From the NCBI RefSeq assembly GCF_009914755.1, contig NC_060925.1: a stretch of 64,000 nt of DNA; one strand, given 5' to 3'. Below are positions 16,347 to 23,489 of the stretch, piece by piece. A program made the position numbers and the translations under genes. This stretch comes from the human T2T-CHM13v2.0 reference genome, Homo sapiens. The number at the start of each line of letters is the position of its first letter. Position 1 is the stretch's first letter. The notes below the pieces were generated by a model. It had not been told where the DNA came from, made no database searches, and saw nothing but the letters and a program-made list of their open reading frames with translations.

Positions 16347-17183
16347 AGTTACACTGCGAAAAGTGACTATGGTATATCATGATGGGGTATTCTAGAGTTC
16401 AGGAAATCTGTTTCCTCATCTGGAGTCTCATTGCATATGGTTGTTTAATATTATATGTAAATATTCATAAAAATGTGCATTTATGTTTTTGTACCACTTT
16501 TTTGTAAAGGTTAGACTTCATTAAAGGAATTACCAGATTATAATGAAGGTGTATCCCTGGGGAGCAGATGTGTGATGGGCTTAAATGACAACCAGCTAAA
16601 AGAGAATGAGATAAAAAAATGTGAATTGTTTTCAAGTGAAAAAAGCTAAGAAATGGTTAACTAAAGTTTATAAAACCTAATGTCATGTAAGAAATGCACT
16701 GTAGTCTTATGTTTCTGTACAGCTCAGCTTTGCTATTTATATAACCATCATAATATAAATGCAGAACATTGCTTGAATAAAATGATAACACTAAAATGGG
16801 AATATTAGAAGAGAAGTTCAGTGTGAACGTAGTTACAAAAGGCAAGAAATTCCCATTTTTTAAAATAAGAATGTAATACATAATTTCTAAAACTGAAAAA
16901 TAAAAAAATAGGTATATGCTGTGGAGGAAAGTTCTCAAAAAGAATTAAGTGTATTAAAAATGAACTGAGAGAGACTATAATACCACGAAAGTGCATAATA
17001 GTGAAGAAAAAAATAAAGTTTCCTCAGCTGTCAGGTGTATGCAAATCTTTTGATCTGAATATAGAAATACTCACAAAAACTACCAGGAGACCATTTCTGA
17101 AAGTAGTCAATTATGTTTAAACATTTATCTCCTTAAAACATGCAAACCACCAAACTGGAGTTATGTTTTTAGTTGGTAATTGA

Positions 17184-17498
17184 TTTTTTTTTTTTTTTGA
17201 GATGTCGCTTCACTCTTGTCCAGGCTGGAGTGCAGTGGCGCGATCCCGGCCCACCGCAACCTCTGCCTCCCAGGTTCAAGGGATTTACCTGCCCCCGCCT
17301 CCAGAGCAGCTGGGACCACAGGCGTGTACCACCATGCCTGGACAGTTTGTTTGTTTGTTTGTTTGTTTTTGTATTTTTAGTAGAGACTGGGCTTTGCCAC
17401 CTTGTCCAGGCTAGTCTCGAATCCCCGACTTCAGGCTATCCGCCAGCCTTGGCCTCCCAAAGTTCTGGGACCACAGGCATGACCCACCATGCCTGGCA
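17184..17498 (-). mobile_element. AluS (Sq/Sp/Sz-like), antisense, with heavy T>C (+ strand) skew
   Basis: Poly-T, dimeric Alu with (gttt)n middle; e.g. gggaccaca for gggattaca twice, gagcagc for gagtagc, gatcccggcccac for gatctcggctcac. Confidence 0.95.
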
Positions 17499-17816
17499 AT
17501 AATTGGTATCTCTTAACTCTCATTCTAGTTTTCTAGAATCAAAATTGTTAAGAATAAGGAGTTGAGACAAAGGTAGAAGAATCCACACTATAGTGTTCCA
17601 AACTGTTTTCAAAACTAACTCATTCCTTTGGTTCAAAGAGAAAAAAGGTTACCTCCTTTTAAAATCTAATATGAGTATGGCTGATGGAAATTAGACCAGT
17701 CTTACAAATTATAAACCTACAGTAGCAACCATAAAATTTATGCTGTGCTAGGAAATGATAGAGCTAACCCTAGTGTGCTGTTTAGCATACAGAAAGTACT
17801 CCAAAATAATGACTGG

Positions 17817-18117
17817 GGCTGGGCGTGGTGGATCACACCTGCAATCCCAGCACCTCGGGAGGCCGAGGCAGGTGGATTATTTGAGTCAGGAGTTCGAGAC
17901 CAGCCTGGCCAATACAGCAAAACCTCGTCTCTACTAAAAATGTAAAAATTAGCCAGGTGTGGTGGCGTGAGCCTGCAATCCCAGCCACTTGGGAGGCTGA
18001 GACAAGAGAATTGTCCAAACCCGGGAGGCAGAGGCTGCAGCAAGCCAAGACCACGCCACTGCACTCCCGCCTGTCGGACAGAGCGAGACTGTGTCTCAAT
18101 AAATAAATAAATAAAAA
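17817..18117 (+). mobile_element. AluS (Sx/Sz-like), sense, with heavy T>C (+ strand) skew
   Basis: Full dimer with (aata)n tail; cctgcaatc for cctgtaatc twice, cacctcggg for cactttggg, gaggctgcagcaagcc for gaggttgcagtgagcc. Confidence 0.95.
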
Positions 18118-20199: not shown

Positions 20200-20844
20200 T
20201 TACAACTAAGCTTTTGATGAATTAGACCAATGTGTTCCATATTTTAAATGAAATTTAGGTATCTGAATCCTTCTGTTACAGGCAACAATAAAAACAGTTA
20301 TTGAAAATGTTGAAAAGTATAAAATAGTAATTATAAAGTAGCAAATACCCAATTTAAAAAGGCAGTTTTCCTTATACAGTACAAGCAACGGTAATTTGAA
20401 TATTATTCACTTTCAGCCACCATTTGCCCTAGATGTACTTTACTTATGACAAGTTTTTAAGCTTGTGTTTTTGGAGTGAAAATTTATATGGATACTAACA
20501 ATTATAATTTTTGTTATTTAACAGCATCTTTAATATAATAGCACAGAAAACATATTTTCTGAAATTTTCAGTTAAAGCCTTTGAATTATTTATCTTTGAT
20601 TTAATATACAGCCAGCATTTTGCCCCATTCTAAATAATATTTAGCTGAACTGATTCATACGTATTTTAATGACCATTATAGCAAGGGCCTACAAATGGTG
20701 TGGGAATCAGGGAAAAGCTGCCTCTTTGGTATCTCAACTGGTGTTGATTATTGCTATCAACTATTCGGTGAAAAAAATCAAAATTAAGCCCCGTCAAATC
20801 TTATAAGTACTAGCTTTGGTCCTTCAAACACTTGAACATTTGTG

Positions 20845-21198
20845 AAAATGATGAGTTCATATCCTTTGTAGGGACATGGATGAAGCTGGAAACCATCATT
20901 CTCAGCAAACTATCACAGGGACAAAAAACCAAACACCGCATGTTCTCACTCACAGGTGGGAATTGAACAATGAGAACACATGAACACAGGAAGGGGAACA
21001 TCACGCACCAGGGACTGTTGTGTAGTGGGCGGGGGGGGTGGGATAGCATTAGGAGATATACCTAATGCTAAATGACGAGTTAATGGGTGCAGCACACAAA
21101 TATAGCACATGTATACATATGTAACAAACCTGCATGTTGTGCACATGTACCCTAAAACTTAAAGTATAATAATAATAATTTAAAAAAAGAAAAATAAA
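20845..21198 (+). mobile_element. 5'-truncated young L1PA (L1PA3/4-like) 3' end
   Basis: atgatgagttcatatcctttgtagggacatggatgaagctggaaacc ... ggagatatacctaatgctaaatgacgag ... cctaaaacttaaagtataataata + A-tail. Confidence 0.93.
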
Positions 21199-23489
21199 GT
21201 TGAAGTTCAGGTCTTGCCATTGCCATTAAAAACAAATCAGACTGGAGACTTAGTTTACCTGGGAACAAATTTACTTGAATATTCAGTACCTGAAACTATG
21301 CCAAACCAAAGAGCAGCTGCAGTACATTAGTTATTTTAAATGTACAAGTTTACAAAGTTTATTTTCATCTTTACATAAGGATGATTTTTTTAAAAACCGT
21401 TTTTACATATTAGTGGTTATGATCCAATATGTCATGAGTGAATTTAGCTGTAAGGTGGCTTAAATCAAATATGCACTGTTTACTTGAATTGTATTTCTAC
21501 TAGAAAGCAGATTTTGACTATGTTTACTGGACTGTTTAAATTAAGGATTATCAGGCATGTAAGATCTCCTTTCGGTTATCTTTAAAGCAGTTGTATATTA
21601 AGGGCTTAGATTTAGGGTCTACATATTCTGGGCATTGAATAGGCAGTATCTTACAAATAAGTTTTGCTTACCTTTTGTTCCAGGGGCTAGCACTGCTATC
21701 AGTGGAAAGTAATTTTAACTAATCTGTTATTAAGAAATTCATATTTTTGCATTTCAGCCAAAATAAAGACCGTATCTAATAATCTGTTAGAAACAGATAA
21801 TATATGTCTGAAGTCCATATGTTTCATATGATCTAAACTGTATTTTCTGATTTAAATTAAAAATGTAATATAGATTCAGAAAGTTTCATATTTTTATAAT
21901 GACTTCATTTTATATTATTTTGTTGGGTTGCATAAAGAAACAAGGAATTGTATTAAAAGATGAAGAAAGCTATTAGGTATATCTGTGCATGAGTGCAAAT
22001 GAGTTTATGCCTGTTTAAAAGAAAAGATGAACACTATTTTAAAGTGAGCTTTAATATGCTTTTATATAAAAATATTTGAAGTGCAATTTAGTTTGGTTGT
22101 GTTTATCTAACAAGTACCATACCCTTGTATTTATTCTCATTTGTATAATCCTAGCCCATGACTTAATGTTGACGCTTTGCTTTGTCTTTTGGATGGCCTA
22201 ACCTACATTAACATGTATGCAGAACATTTTAAAACTTATTTTTTCAAAAATCATTATGAACTACTTTATTAATAAACAAATAAAGATAAAAATGTATTAA
22301 AAATGATATTATGTAAAGAGCAGGAATTTATATTCAAGAACGATTAGACAGTGAACTGCTATTTTTCAGCCTAGCAGTAGTTATTAATCTCTAAATGATC
22401 TGTATGTATTACCTTTTTAAATAAATAGGAATGTATAAGACATAAATCTACAGAGAAGTCTAGTTGAATTATAAATTTAAAGTAACTCTTTAATCTATAA
22501 TTTATTATGATTTTCAAAAATACTCTTCATGTTAAAATATTGTCATATTTGTTCTATCACAGCAATTAGCCCGAGTATGAGCTTTTTAAGAGGCTAGGGC
22601 AAAGATGTGCATGTACTGTAAAAGTCAGTGAATGTAGATGTTTATTTCACTGGATTTGAGCTTTTTGAGAAAACAAAACTTACATAATGCTTGTTTTAAA
22701 AAGATAAATAACATTTTAAATTGTGACCATAATTTTGCTGTCCCCAAGTAGTGTTAGAAGGGTGGCTAAAATCTGTATGGATTTTTAAGACATGTTTTCA
22801 TGTAGAAACATATAAATTGTATATTGTGTGTATTTATTTATAGATATCTGATAACATGAGTTTTTTGGCATGCCGGAAGTTATGATGAAATAGTTATTTA
22901 TGGAAGGTAGATTCTTTTGTTTTGATGAATTGATAAGTATCTGTTACATATTGGAAATAGTACATATGTTGCAATAATGTCTGAAAGGTACAAGATATTT
23001 TTATTACCAATATGCATACCATATTTAATGTACACATTCTATACTATATGTGTTTCGAATTATTATAGTAATATTCAGTCAAAAAGTAAAAATGAATACA
23101 TAAATCCTTTGTTAAATAACTCATGCCTCGAGATAAAAGTTACATTATATTATTCTTAATTCAAAGCCTACATTTGGTTAGAAGGAAAGCAGTAAGGCAG
23201 GATTGGCTTTAAGAAATACTGTGGTTGTTAAAATAAATGACTTGGAAACGAGTTTCCAGTAGCTTCATACAGGCTCTTGAGCCAGTTTGCTAAATATAGA
23301 CACTTAATTCTGTTGCCTCTGCTAAAGGGCAATCTAGAGATAGCTAGGGGATTGTTTAAAAAATACTGCTTCTGTGCAGCCAAAATGGTCTAGTTAATTT
23401 TCACATATAGAGGAGCAGATTTTATACGTATATATGTGTGTACCCATAGGTAGATATGGATATGGATATAGATATGGTATCACTGGTAT

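What the first reader, a model, noticed from the sequence alone, without database searches (positions are those of the whole stretch)
16947..22306. Hidden ~3.8-kb retrocopied 3'UTR delimited by a 17-bp TSD
Seen: aagtgtattaaaaatga (16947-16963) and aaatgtattaaaaatga (22290-22306) bracket 5.3 kb. The right end has AATAAA (22271, 22279) in an A-rich run, and the left TSD follows TT. Removing LTR12C (1.2 kb) and the L1PA piece (0.35 kb) leaves ~3.8 kb of UTR-like sequence with no CDS. Established: L1 target-primed reverse transcription gives 7-20 bp TSDs, an A-tail and 5' truncation. Inference: this is a UTR-only processed pseudogene, which protein-based pseudogene pipelines would miss. I could not identify the parent gene.
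Basis: partly seen in the sequence, partly recalled or inferred. Interest (0 to 1): 0.75.

Follow-up and report, generated by a model that had tools for sequence, protein, structure and literature searches.

The report
Inverted ZDHHC20 3'UTR retrocopy on chr1
This stretch is a dead copy of the tail end (3'UTR) of the ZDHHC20 messenger RNA, pasted into chromosome 1 by the LINE-1 machinery with its front two-thirds flipped; it is an ordinary kind of genomic fossil, but it appears to preserve marks of ancient RNA editing.

Summary
The 16/17 repeat at 16947-16963 and 22290-22306 is real, and it is a true target-site duplication. The DNA between it is a copy of the last 3,740 nt of the terminal exon of ZDHHC20 (chr13, minus strand). 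It contains no coding sequence and ends at the parent's cleavage site.

The two pieces abut in the parent, which is the signature of L1 twin priming.

- The two Alus in the interval came with the mRNA.
- A solo LTR (19008-20199, 4-bp TSD) and an L1 3' fragment (~20835-21188) were inserted later.
- A second, near-full-length ZDHHC20 processed pseudogene on chr13 (68.2 Mb) identifies the parent, matching PDB human DHHC20 at E 1.7e-81.
- Inside the inverted Alu pair, the window copy has 24 A>G against 1 T>C changes on the mRNA strand. This looks like a fossil of ADAR editing.
- The LTR carries exon 1 of lncRNA LOC107985242, and the retrocopy supplies that exon's GT splice donor.

This is a new member of a known kind, of low to moderate interest.

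The parts
16947..16963 (.). Left copy of the 17-bp target-site duplication (AAGTGTATTAAAAATGA). It is preceded by TT, so the first nick was at TT/AA. Its 3' end (ATTAAAAATGA) resembles the parent's internal priming site (ATTAAAAGA).
16964..19007 (-). Inverted (antisense) part of the ZDHHC20 3'UTR copy, first piece. It matches chr13 ~20568339-20570369 read on the chr13 plus strand, so the mRNA sense lies on the window's minus strand. The TTAC at 19004-19007 is the left TSD of the later LTR insertion.
   Evidence: 16953-19004 = C13 20568332-20570366, 85.8% over 2,075 columns; junction; 90% over 18125-19004
17186..17500 (-). Alu that was already in the parent 3'UTR, sense in the mRNA. It is one arm of the inverted Alu pair and carries 13 A>G against 1 T>C changes on the mRNA strand.
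   Evidence: the alignment to both chr13 loci runs through it
17815..18118 (+). Second Alu of the parent 3'UTR, antisense in the mRNA. It is the other arm of the inverted pair and carries 11 A>G against 0 T>C changes on the mRNA strand.
19008..20199 (-). Solo LTR of 1,192 bp with TG...CA termini, inserted after the retrocopy. It is absent from the parent and from the chr13 68.2-Mb pseudogene. It is flanked by a 4-bp TSD, TTAC (19004-19007 and 20200-20203). The annotated exon 1 of lncRNA LOC107985242 (19008-19205, minus strand) lies in it. Orientation is inferred from that exon.
   Evidence: hub gene table
20200..20496 (-). Inverted part of the ZDHHC20 3'UTR copy, second piece. It ends at the copy's 5'-most point, C13 20570654, which is the 5' truncation point.
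   Evidence: 20204-20496 = C13 20570370-20570654, 92.5%
20497..20501 (.). Five unassigned bases (AACAA) at the inversion junction.
20502..20834 (+). Sense part of the ZDHHC20 3'UTR copy, first piece. It starts at C13 20568338, next to the base where the inverted part begins.
   Evidence: 20502-20833 = C13 20568338-20568016, 90.4%
20835..21188 (+). Later insertion of an L1 3'-end fragment with an A-rich tail. It is absent from both chr13 loci. About 11 nt of the target (TGACAC(C)TTAA) are lost, and no clear TSD is visible.
   Evidence: the hub's repeat mask covers 20842-21024
21189..22285 (+). Sense part of the ZDHHC20 3'UTR copy, second piece. It runs to the parent's cleavage site (AATAAAC[AAAT]AAAG). 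The bracketed 4 nt are an insertion shared with the chr13 68.2-Mb pseudogene.
   Evidence: (21187-22280 = C13 20568001-20566915, 92.2%)
22286..22289 (+). Remnant of the poly(A) tail (ATAA). Its border with the A's that open the TSD is ambiguous.
22290..22306 (.). Right copy of the 17-bp target-site duplication (AAATGTATTAAAAATGA).

Best explanation
Window 16964-22289 is a UTR-only processed pseudogene of ZDHHC20, made by LINE-1 target-primed reverse transcription with twin priming.

Inferred mechanism:
1. A polyadenylated ZDHHC20 mRNA was captured by the L1 machinery.
2. The bottom strand was nicked at TT/AA(G/A)T, and the first cDNA was primed on the poly(A) tail.
3. The top strand was nicked 17 bp downstream. 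Its 3' end (...ATTAAAAATGA) annealed to an internal UTR site (...UC-UUUUAAU...) and primed a second cDNA toward the 5' end of the RNA.
4. That second cDNA stopped 3,740 nt from the poly(A) site.
5. Joining the two cDNAs gave: TSD, inverted 2.3-kb 5' piece, 5 filler bases, sense 1.4-kb 3' piece, short A tail, TSD.

The anatomy and the homology are shown. These mechanistic steps are inferred from them.

The two Alus were part of the mRNA. A solo LTR and an L1 3' fragment were inserted later.

The copy has no coding sequence and was most likely non-functional from the start. Its only apparent present-day contribution is the GT splice donor (GTAAGCAT on the minus strand, 19000-19007). A predicted lncRNA uses it for an exon 1 that starts in the LTR.

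From 4.3% lineage-specific substitutions outside the Alus, the age is of the order of 20-40 Myr. This is an inference that uses recalled primate neutral rates.
For: Parent and its identity
- Window 21200-22289 hits C13:20566915-20567988(-) at 92% and C13:68211162-68212243(+) at 90%.
- The 68.2-Mb locus is intronless. It carries the best PF01529 (DHHC) match of 31 in the genome, E 8.6e-29.
- An ORF from that locus matches PDB human DHHC20 (6bmm, 6bml, 6bmn, 7khm) at E 1.7e-81.
- It has its own 15-bp TSD.
- Its coding part maps to 10 collinear exon-like segments on C13:20575778-20653647(-).
- The 20.57-Mb stretch begins with a polypyrimidine tract and an AG acceptor, and it continues past the cleavage site without an A tail. 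It is therefore the terminal exon of the parent gene.

Inverted anatomy
- 16953-19004 and 20204-20496 match C13 20568332-20570654 in plus orientation.
- 20502-20833 and 21187-22280 match C13 20568338-20566915 in minus orientation.
- The two pieces abut at 20568338/39.
- The RNA-3' end of the inverted piece touches the left TSD, as twin priming predicts.
- The end of the TSD and the priming site share ATTAAAA..GA: 9 of 11 with a 2-nt bulge, and 2 nt exactly.

Other support
- The copy ends at the site where the chr13 68.2-Mb, chr19 and chr2 copies also end. Each has its own TSD, and the chr19 copies share one.
- The TSD has a chance expectation of 1.8e-4 at the anchored ends.
- There is no coding sequence. 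All three frames of the terminal exon stop within 84 nt of its start, at least 250 nt upstream of the copy's 5' end.
- Both nested insertions are absent from both chr13 loci.
- Passages read in PMC12016303 report 5' inversions in 3 of 23 processed pseudogenes. The abstract and passages of PMC3996531 report inverted rearrangements in 21% of somatic ones.
Against: - The A tail is only about 4-7 nt, which is weak for a retrocopy, though old tails shrink.
- The copy lies within one parental exon, so loss of introns, the classic hallmark, cannot be shown for it.
- Five bases at the inversion junction are unexplained.
- The nick site TT/AAGT (or TT/AAAT) departs from the TT/AAAA consensus.
- No outgroup genome was available, so the empty site was not seen and the age is only a rate-based estimate.
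- The ZDHHC20 name rests on the PDB match of the sister pseudogene plus exon mapping. It does not rest on an annotation of chr13.
Confidence: 0.93

Rival explanations
1. An ordinary, collinear retrocopy was inserted first. A later DNA inversion then flipped its 5' 2.3 kb.
For: The final arrangement is the same as in twin priming. The insert contains an inverted Alu pair, and such pairs can mediate inversions.
Against: One breakpoint would have to fall exactly at the first base after the left TSD. The other would have to fall in unique UTR sequence, not in the Alus. The microhomology between the TSD end and the internal site is expected from twin priming, not from a later inversion.
Confidence: 0.03
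2. The window copy was retrocopied from a transcript of the chr13 68.2-Mb ZDHHC20 pseudogene, not from the ZDHHC20 gene itself.
For: The two copies share a 4-nt insertion at the extreme 3' end that is absent from the parent and from the chr19 and chr2 copies. They also share 12 A>G sites in the Alus.
Against: The pseudogene has 15 further A>G changes of its own in the Alus, against 2 T>C in all. That is an editing-type pattern, and the window copy lacks those changes. They should have been inherited. K2P distance from the window copy to the pseudogene (0.122) exceeds its distance to the parent (0.101). The three lineages form a star: 185, 144 and 205 private changes.
Confidence: 0.04
3. A DNA-level duplication (duplicative transposition with rearrangement) of the chr13 region, not an RNA-mediated copy.
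For: No intron loss can be shown for a single-exon copy, and the A tail is vestigial.
Against: Homology stops exactly at the cleavage site and inside the exon, and no flanking or intronic DNA came along. The copy has a 17-bp TSD at a TT/AA site. At least three other copies with different TSDs end at the same nucleotide region.
Confidence: 0.02
4. The 17-mer pair is a chance AT-rich match, and the interval is ordinary ancestral chr1 sequence.
For: Matches of 16/17 at 4-7 kb spacing occur 18 times (as runs) in this window.
Against: The interval is 90-92% identical to the ZDHHC20 terminal exon over 3.7 kb. The 17-mers sit exactly at the two ends of that homology, with an expectation of 1.8e-4.
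Confidence: 0.01

Closest known systems
L1-mediated processed pseudogenes with a 5' inversion (twin priming; Ostertag & Kazazian 2001, seen only as a citation in PMC12016303 and PMC3996531)
   Same: One TSD pair around the whole insert. The 3' piece is sense and ends at the poly(A) site. The 5' piece is inverted and adjacent to it in the RNA. There is microhomology at the internal priming site, and the copy is 5' truncated.
   Different: Nothing essential differs. This copy is UTR-only, is an old germline insertion (about 5% private divergence), has almost no A tail left, and was later hit by an LTR and an L1 fragment.
Other ZDHHC20 retrocopies in the same genome: the chr13 68.2-Mb near-full-length pseudogene; partial copies at chr6 29.58 and 31.24 Mb and at chr17 65.3 Mb; roughly 150-bp 3'-end copies on chr19 and chr2. 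The symbols ZDHHC20P1 and ZDHHC20P2 occur in HLA/MHC-related papers in the listing. Assigning them to the chr6 copies is my inference.
   Same: Same parent mRNA. For the chr13, chr19 and chr2 copies, also the same 3' end.
   Different: The window copy is the only inverted one among those I aligned. It has no coding sequence and has no row in the hub's RefSeq table. Only the window copy and the chr13 pseudogene contain the Alu-bearing part of the UTR.
Inverted-repeat Alu (IRAlu) 3'UTRs as ADAR substrates (recalled general knowledge)
   Same: The parent UTR has two oppositely oriented Alus 315 nt apart that fold into a long duplex. Both retrocopies carry a strand-specific A>G excess confined to the Alus.
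   Different: Here the editing is read from DNA copies tens of millions of years old, not from RNA. The depletion of G as 5' neighbour that is typical of ADAR is not seen: 7 of 39 against a background of 32 of 145.

Membership tests
L1-mediated processed pseudogene (retrocopy) | Derived from the mature mRNA of a gene elsewhere in the genome | tested here: met
   90-92% identity to 3,740 nt of the terminal exon of the chr13 DHHC20 gene. The parent is multi-exon.
L1-mediated processed pseudogene (retrocopy) | Introns of the parent are absent | not testable with these tools
   The copy lies entirely inside one parental exon. The sister copy on chr13 (68.2 Mb) is intronless across 10 junction-bearing segments.
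L1-mediated processed pseudogene (retrocopy) | Ends at the parent's polyadenylation site | tested here: met
   Homology ends at AATAAAC..AAAG. The parent continues GTCTTG without A's. The chr13, chr19 and chr2 copies end at the same place.
L1-mediated processed pseudogene (retrocopy) | Poly(A) tail | tested here: inconclusive
   Only ATAA plus the A's that open the TSD remain.
L1-mediated processed pseudogene (retrocopy) | Target-site duplication of 7-20 bp at a TT/AAAA-like nick site | tested here: met
   The TSD is 17 bp, 16/17 identical, sits exactly at the ends of the homology, and is preceded by TT. Expectation 1.8e-4.
L1-mediated processed pseudogene (retrocopy) | Empty site in species that diverged before the insertion | not testable with these tools
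   No other primate or mammalian genome is held.
Twin-priming 5' inversion | The 5' segment is inverted, the 3' segment is sense, and both lie inside one TSD pair | tested here: met
Twin-priming 5' inversion | The two segments are adjacent in the RNA, with at most a small overlap or gap | tested here: met
   The sense piece starts at C13 20568338 and the inverted piece at about 20568339. The overlap is at most 7 nt if the microhomology is counted.
Twin-priming 5' inversion | The RNA-3' end of the inverted segment abuts the upstream TSD, with complementarity to the top-strand 3' end | tested here: met
   The left TSD ends ATTAAAAATGA and the parent reads ATTAAAAGA at that point.
Segmental (DNA-level) duplication | Carries non-transcribed or intronic flanking DNA of the source | tested here: not met
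   No homology to chr13 outside the exon or past the cleavage site within the 20 kb compared.
ADAR-edited inverted Alu pair (fossil footprint) | Two oppositely oriented Alus in one transcript that can form long dsRNA | tested here: met
   The parent's 961-nt segment folds at -482.6 kcal/mol, z = -21. None of 20 shuffles folds as well.
ADAR-edited inverted Alu pair (fossil footprint) | A>G excess on the transcript strand only, in both Alus, and not outside them | tested here: met
   Window copy: 24 A>G of 111 A sites against 1 T>C of 109 T sites (13:1 and 11:0 per Alu). Outside the Alus: 18 A>G against 28 T>C. Fisher p = 4e-6, computed on the counts (22:1).
ADAR-edited inverted Alu pair (fossil footprint) | ADAR neighbour preference (5' G disfavoured) | tested here: inconclusive
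   The 5' neighbour is G at 7 of 39 sites, against 32 of 145 A's in the background.
ADAR-edited inverted Alu pair (fossil footprint) | The same sites are edited in present-day ZDHHC20 mRNA | not testable with these tools
   No RNA-seq or editing database is held. A search for ZDHHC20 + RNA editing + 3 UTR + Alu found 0 papers.

The most novel reading that the evidence does not exclude
The window copy and its sister pseudogene on chr13 may be DNA fossils of ADAR hyper-editing. The ZDHHC20 mRNAs that L1 copied, in the germline of an anthropoid ancestor, would already have been edited at about a fifth of the adenosines in the 3'UTR's inverted Alu hairpin.

In that reading the 24 A>G sites in the window copy and the 27 in the sister copy (12 shared) record which sites were edited tens of millions of years ago. 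Hyper-edited IRAlu mRNAs would then have been available to the L1 machinery. Retrocopies of IRAlu-bearing UTRs could be mined genome-wide as a record of ancient editing.
Probability: 0.75. Interest if true: 0.5.

Novelty: new member of a known kind. Interest (0 to 1): 0.3.

Why it matters
As a retrocopy this is routine. It adds one unannotated, UTR-only, twin-primed ZDHHC20 pseudogene to the human catalogue, and it explains 5.3 kb of otherwise unique-looking chr1 sequence.

Three points give it some further value:
- It is a clean germline example of twin priming. Both junctions, the microhomology and the parental breakpoints are resolved to the base.
- It shows how layered insertions build a transcript. 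An LTR supplies exon 1 of a predicted lncRNA, and the retrocopy supplies its splice donor.
- The strand-specific A>G excess confined to the inverted Alus suggests that retrocopies can preserve ancient A-to-I editing, which could be tested genome-wide.

It also illustrates that a collinear-alignment or protein-based pseudogene search would report at most the sense 1.4 kb, or nothing.

Tried and rejected
- One paper search failed on a term format and was re-worded.
- Rfam (gathering thresholds) over 16500-22800 gave 0 matches, so no known structured RNA explains the region.
- A first parsimony count without an outgroup gave only a weak A>G signal for the window copy: 11 A>G against 5 T>C in the Alus. 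The signal became clear only after polarising with a pile-up of 29-30 other Alus.
- The ADAR 5'-neighbour preference was looked for and not found.
- Four full-text searches and passages of PMC5974252 turned up no report of A-to-I footprints in processed pseudogenes. Subscription journals are not covered, so this is not proof of novelty.
- A search for ZDHHC20 editing found 0 papers.
- I did not verify the names LTR12C and L1PA, because no repeat library was at hand.
- I could not determine the empty site, the presence in other primates, or present-day expression.
- I considered and rejected three readings: that the second AATAAA (22279) is a poly(A) signal of the parent, that the Alus are later insertions, and that the chr13 68.2-Mb locus is the parent.

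
Full report
**Observation.** They match at 16 of 17 positions. TT precedes the left copy, and AATAAA occurs at 22271 and 22279.

On its own the pair is not remarkable. Among 175,453,500 position pairs 4-7 kb apart in this window, 73 17-mers match at >=16/17. They form 18 runs, 9 of them isolated. At 300-10,000 bp there are 77 such clusters. The pair becomes meaningful through what lies between the two copies.

**The parent.** An own-genome search with window 21200-22289 gave 10 matches:
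- the window itself;
- C13:20566915-20567988(-) at 92%;
- C13:68211162-68212243(+) at 90%;
- seven short hits to the last ~80-160 nt of the query, on chr19, chr2 and chr7.

The chr13 68.2-Mb locus aligns collinearly to the 20.57-Mb locus over 4,159 columns at 87.4% identity. Directly 5' of that homology lies an intronless DHHC domain. It is the best of 31 PF01529 matches in the genome, at E 8.6e-29 with one TGA inside. A 153-aa open frame there matches PDB human DHHC20 (6bmm, 6bml, 6bmn; 7khm 'ZDHHC20') at E 1.7e-81, the top of 8 distinct sequences matched.

The coding part of that locus maps to 10 collinear exon-like segments on C13:20575778-20653647, minus strand. The 68.2-Mb copy has its own 15-bp TSD.

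The 20.57-Mb stretch starts with a polypyrimidine tract and an AG acceptor. It runs past the cleavage site as ordinary DNA without an A tail.

The conclusions are:
- C13:20566915-20570985(-) is the terminal exon of ZDHHC20.
- The 68.2-Mb locus is a near-full-length processed pseudogene.
- The window holds a third copy.

**Anatomy of the window copy.** Local blastn and junction alignments give this map:

| Window | chr13 parent | Orientation to chr13 plus strand | Identity |
|---|---|---|---|
| 16953-19004 | 20568332-20570366 | same | 85.8% over 2,075 columns (through both Alus) |
| 20204-20496 | 20570370-20570654 | same | 92.5% |
| 20502-20833 | 20568338-20568016 | reversed | 90.4% |
| 21187-22280 | 20568001-20566915 | reversed | 92.2% |

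The gene is on the chr13 minus strand. The right 1.4 kb of parental sequence is therefore sense, and the left 2.3 kb is antisense.

Further points of the anatomy:
- The two pieces abut in the parent, at 20568338 and about 20568339.
- The RNA-3' end of the inverted piece touches the left TSD.
- The 5'-most point of the copy (20570654) sits at the inversion junction, followed by five unassigned bases (20497-20501).
- The left TSD ends ATTAAAAATGA, and the parent reads ATTAAAAGA at the priming point.

This is the arrangement that twin priming predicts. The top-strand 3' end freed by the second nick anneals inside the RNA and primes a second cDNA.

After removing the nested elements, 3,765 nt remain, against 3,740 nt in the parent.

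**UTR-only.** All three frames of the terminal exon meet a stop within 84 nt of its start (L010 4987 to 4904). The copy begins at L010 4654. It therefore holds no coding sequence.

**The 3' end.** Homology ends at AATAAAC..AAAG, and only ATAA separates it from the right TSD. The chr19 and chr2 fragments end at the same AAAG followed by A-rich tails:
- The chr19 copies share one TSD (GGTGGGGGTTCA) and their flanks. They are one short retrocopy later amplified by duplication.
- The chr2 copy has its own TSD.

The window copy and the 68.2-Mb pseudogene share a 4-nt insertion (CAAA-TAAA-G/T) that is absent from the parent, the chr19 copies and the chr2 copy.

**TSD statistics.** With both ends fixed independently by homology, the expected number of >=16/17 17-mers in a 21x21 box at those ends is 1.8e-4.

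**Nested insertions.** Using the two chr13 loci as empty sites:
- A 1,192-bp element with TG...CA termini (19008-20199) is flanked by a 4-bp TSD, TTAC.
- An L1-like 3' fragment with an A-rich tail (~20835-21188) replaces about 11 nt of the target and has no clear TSD.

I could not test them.

**The Alus.** Both Alus (17186-17500 and 17815-18118) are present at the same places in both chr13 loci. They were part of the mRNA.

**Age and relationships.** A three-way alignment has 3,644 ungapped columns. It gives 185 private changes in the window copy, 144 in the parent, 205 in the 68.2-Mb copy, and 13 three-way differences. K2P distances are:
- window to parent: 0.101;
- window to pseudogene: 0.122;
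- parent to pseudogene: 0.108.

The pattern is star-like, so the two retrocopies are of similar age.

Outside the Alus the window copy has 132 private changes in 3,039 sites, or 4.3%. With recalled primate neutral rates of about 1-2e-9 per site per year, this is of the order of 20-40 Myr. That figure is an inference.

Only these three loci hold the Alu-bearing UTR segment. Window 18125-19004 gave 4 matches, the fourth a 40-bp hit.

**An unexpected extra: an editing-like footprint.** In the mRNA, the two Alus are in opposite orientation, 315 nt apart. The parent's 961-nt segment folds into a long duplex at -482.6 kcal/mol, with z = -21 and none of 20 shuffles folding as well.

I polarised changes with the majority state of 29-30 other Alus and kept only sites where the parent agrees with that state:

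| Copy | A>G on mRNA strand | T>C on mRNA strand |
|---|---|---|
| Window | 24 of 111 A sites (13 and 11 in the two Alus) | 1 of 109 T sites |
| 68.2-Mb pseudogene | 27 | 2 |

Twelve A>G sites are shared between the two copies.

Other counts:
- The parent-only class has 0 A>G and 5 T>C.
- Outside the Alus the window copy shows 18 A>G against 28 T>C.
- Fisher p = 4e-6, computed's slightly different tally of 22:1.
- G>A and C>T changes, which reflect CpG decay, are about symmetric: 8 and 11.

The excess follows the mRNA strand in both Alu orientations, as ADAR editing of the template RNA would. Against this reading, the ADAR 5'-neighbour bias is not visible: G at 7 of 39 sites against 32 of 145 in the background. 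Nor could I compare with present-day editing data.

A first count without an outgroup was only suggestive, at 11 against 5.

The 15 editing-type changes private to the pseudogene argue against the window copy being derived from the pseudogene's transcript.

**Link to the annotated lncRNA.** By the hub's table, exon 1 of LOC107985242 (a predicted model, minus strand) is 19008-19205. That is the terminal 198 bp of the LTR. The intron starts at 19007, and the minus-strand sequence of 19000-19007 is GTAAGCAT. The GT donor therefore lies in retrocopy-derived sequence, within the LTR's TSD.

**Literature.**
- Passages of PMC12016303 give 5' inversions in 3 of 23 processed pseudogenes and in 18-22% of L1 insertions.
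- The abstract and passages of PMC3996531 give inverted rearrangements in 21% of somatic processed pseudogenes, and note that most consist of the 3'UTR with varying 5' truncation.
- Passages of PMC2584115 state that protein-based screens cannot align UTR regions or antisense insertions.
- The listing shows the symbols ZDHHC20P1, P2 and P4 in use. None is tied to chr1 in what I saw.
- Searches, and passages of PMC5974252, found no report of A-to-I footprints in processed pseudogenes. One search found no paper on ZDHHC20 editing.

**Verdict.** The parent is identified as ZDHHC20. The structure is refined to a twin-primed, 5'-inverted, UTR-only retrocopy, later hit by an LTR and an L1 fragment. 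It is a new member of a well-known kind. The editing-like footprint is the only part that a specialist might find worth following up.

Noticed in passing
window 17186-17500 and 17815-18118; L011/L012 (C13 68.2 Mb) at the matching Alus: Both ZDHHC20 retrocopies show a strand-specific A>G excess confined to the inverted Alu pair. The window copy has 24 A>G against 1 T>C, and the pseudogene has 27 against 2. Twelve sites are shared. This looks like fossil ADAR editing of the template mRNAs.
   Followed up: partly
window 19000-19205: Exon 1 of the predicted lncRNA LOC107985242 (19008-19205, minus strand) is the terminal 198 bp of the solo LTR. Its GT donor (GTAAGCAT on the minus strand, 19000-19007) lies in the ZDHHC20-derived sequence and the LTR's 4-bp TSD.
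   Followed up: partly
L004, L005, L006, L008 (C19 19.93-20.60 Mb); L007 (C2 142.13 Mb): There are roughly 150-bp, severely 5'-truncated retrocopies of the ZDHHC20 3'UTR end. The four chr19 copies I examined share one TSD (GGTGGGGGTTCA) and their flanks, so they are one insertion amplified by segmental duplication. The chr2 copy has its own TSD. One search also listed one further chr19 hit and one chr7 hit that were not examined.
   Followed up: partly
window 22278-22285; L012 near C13 68212236: The window copy and the chr13 68.2-Mb pseudogene share a 4-nt insertion just before the UTR end. It is absent from the parent and from the chr19 and chr2 copies. A shared source allele or parallel change is possible; this is unresolved without an outgroup.
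   Followed up: partly
window 20835-21188: The nested L1 3' fragment appears to have been inserted with loss of about 11 nt of target sequence. It has no clear TSD when compared with both chr13 'empty sites'.
   Followed up: partly
G000 C6:29582904-29583283, C6:31236273-31236652, C17:65316444-65317070: There are further partial copies of the ZDHHC20 coding region at 78-84% identity. The two on chr6 lie in the MHC region and probably correspond to the named ZDHHC20P1 and P2 (my inference from the paper listing).
   Followed up: no
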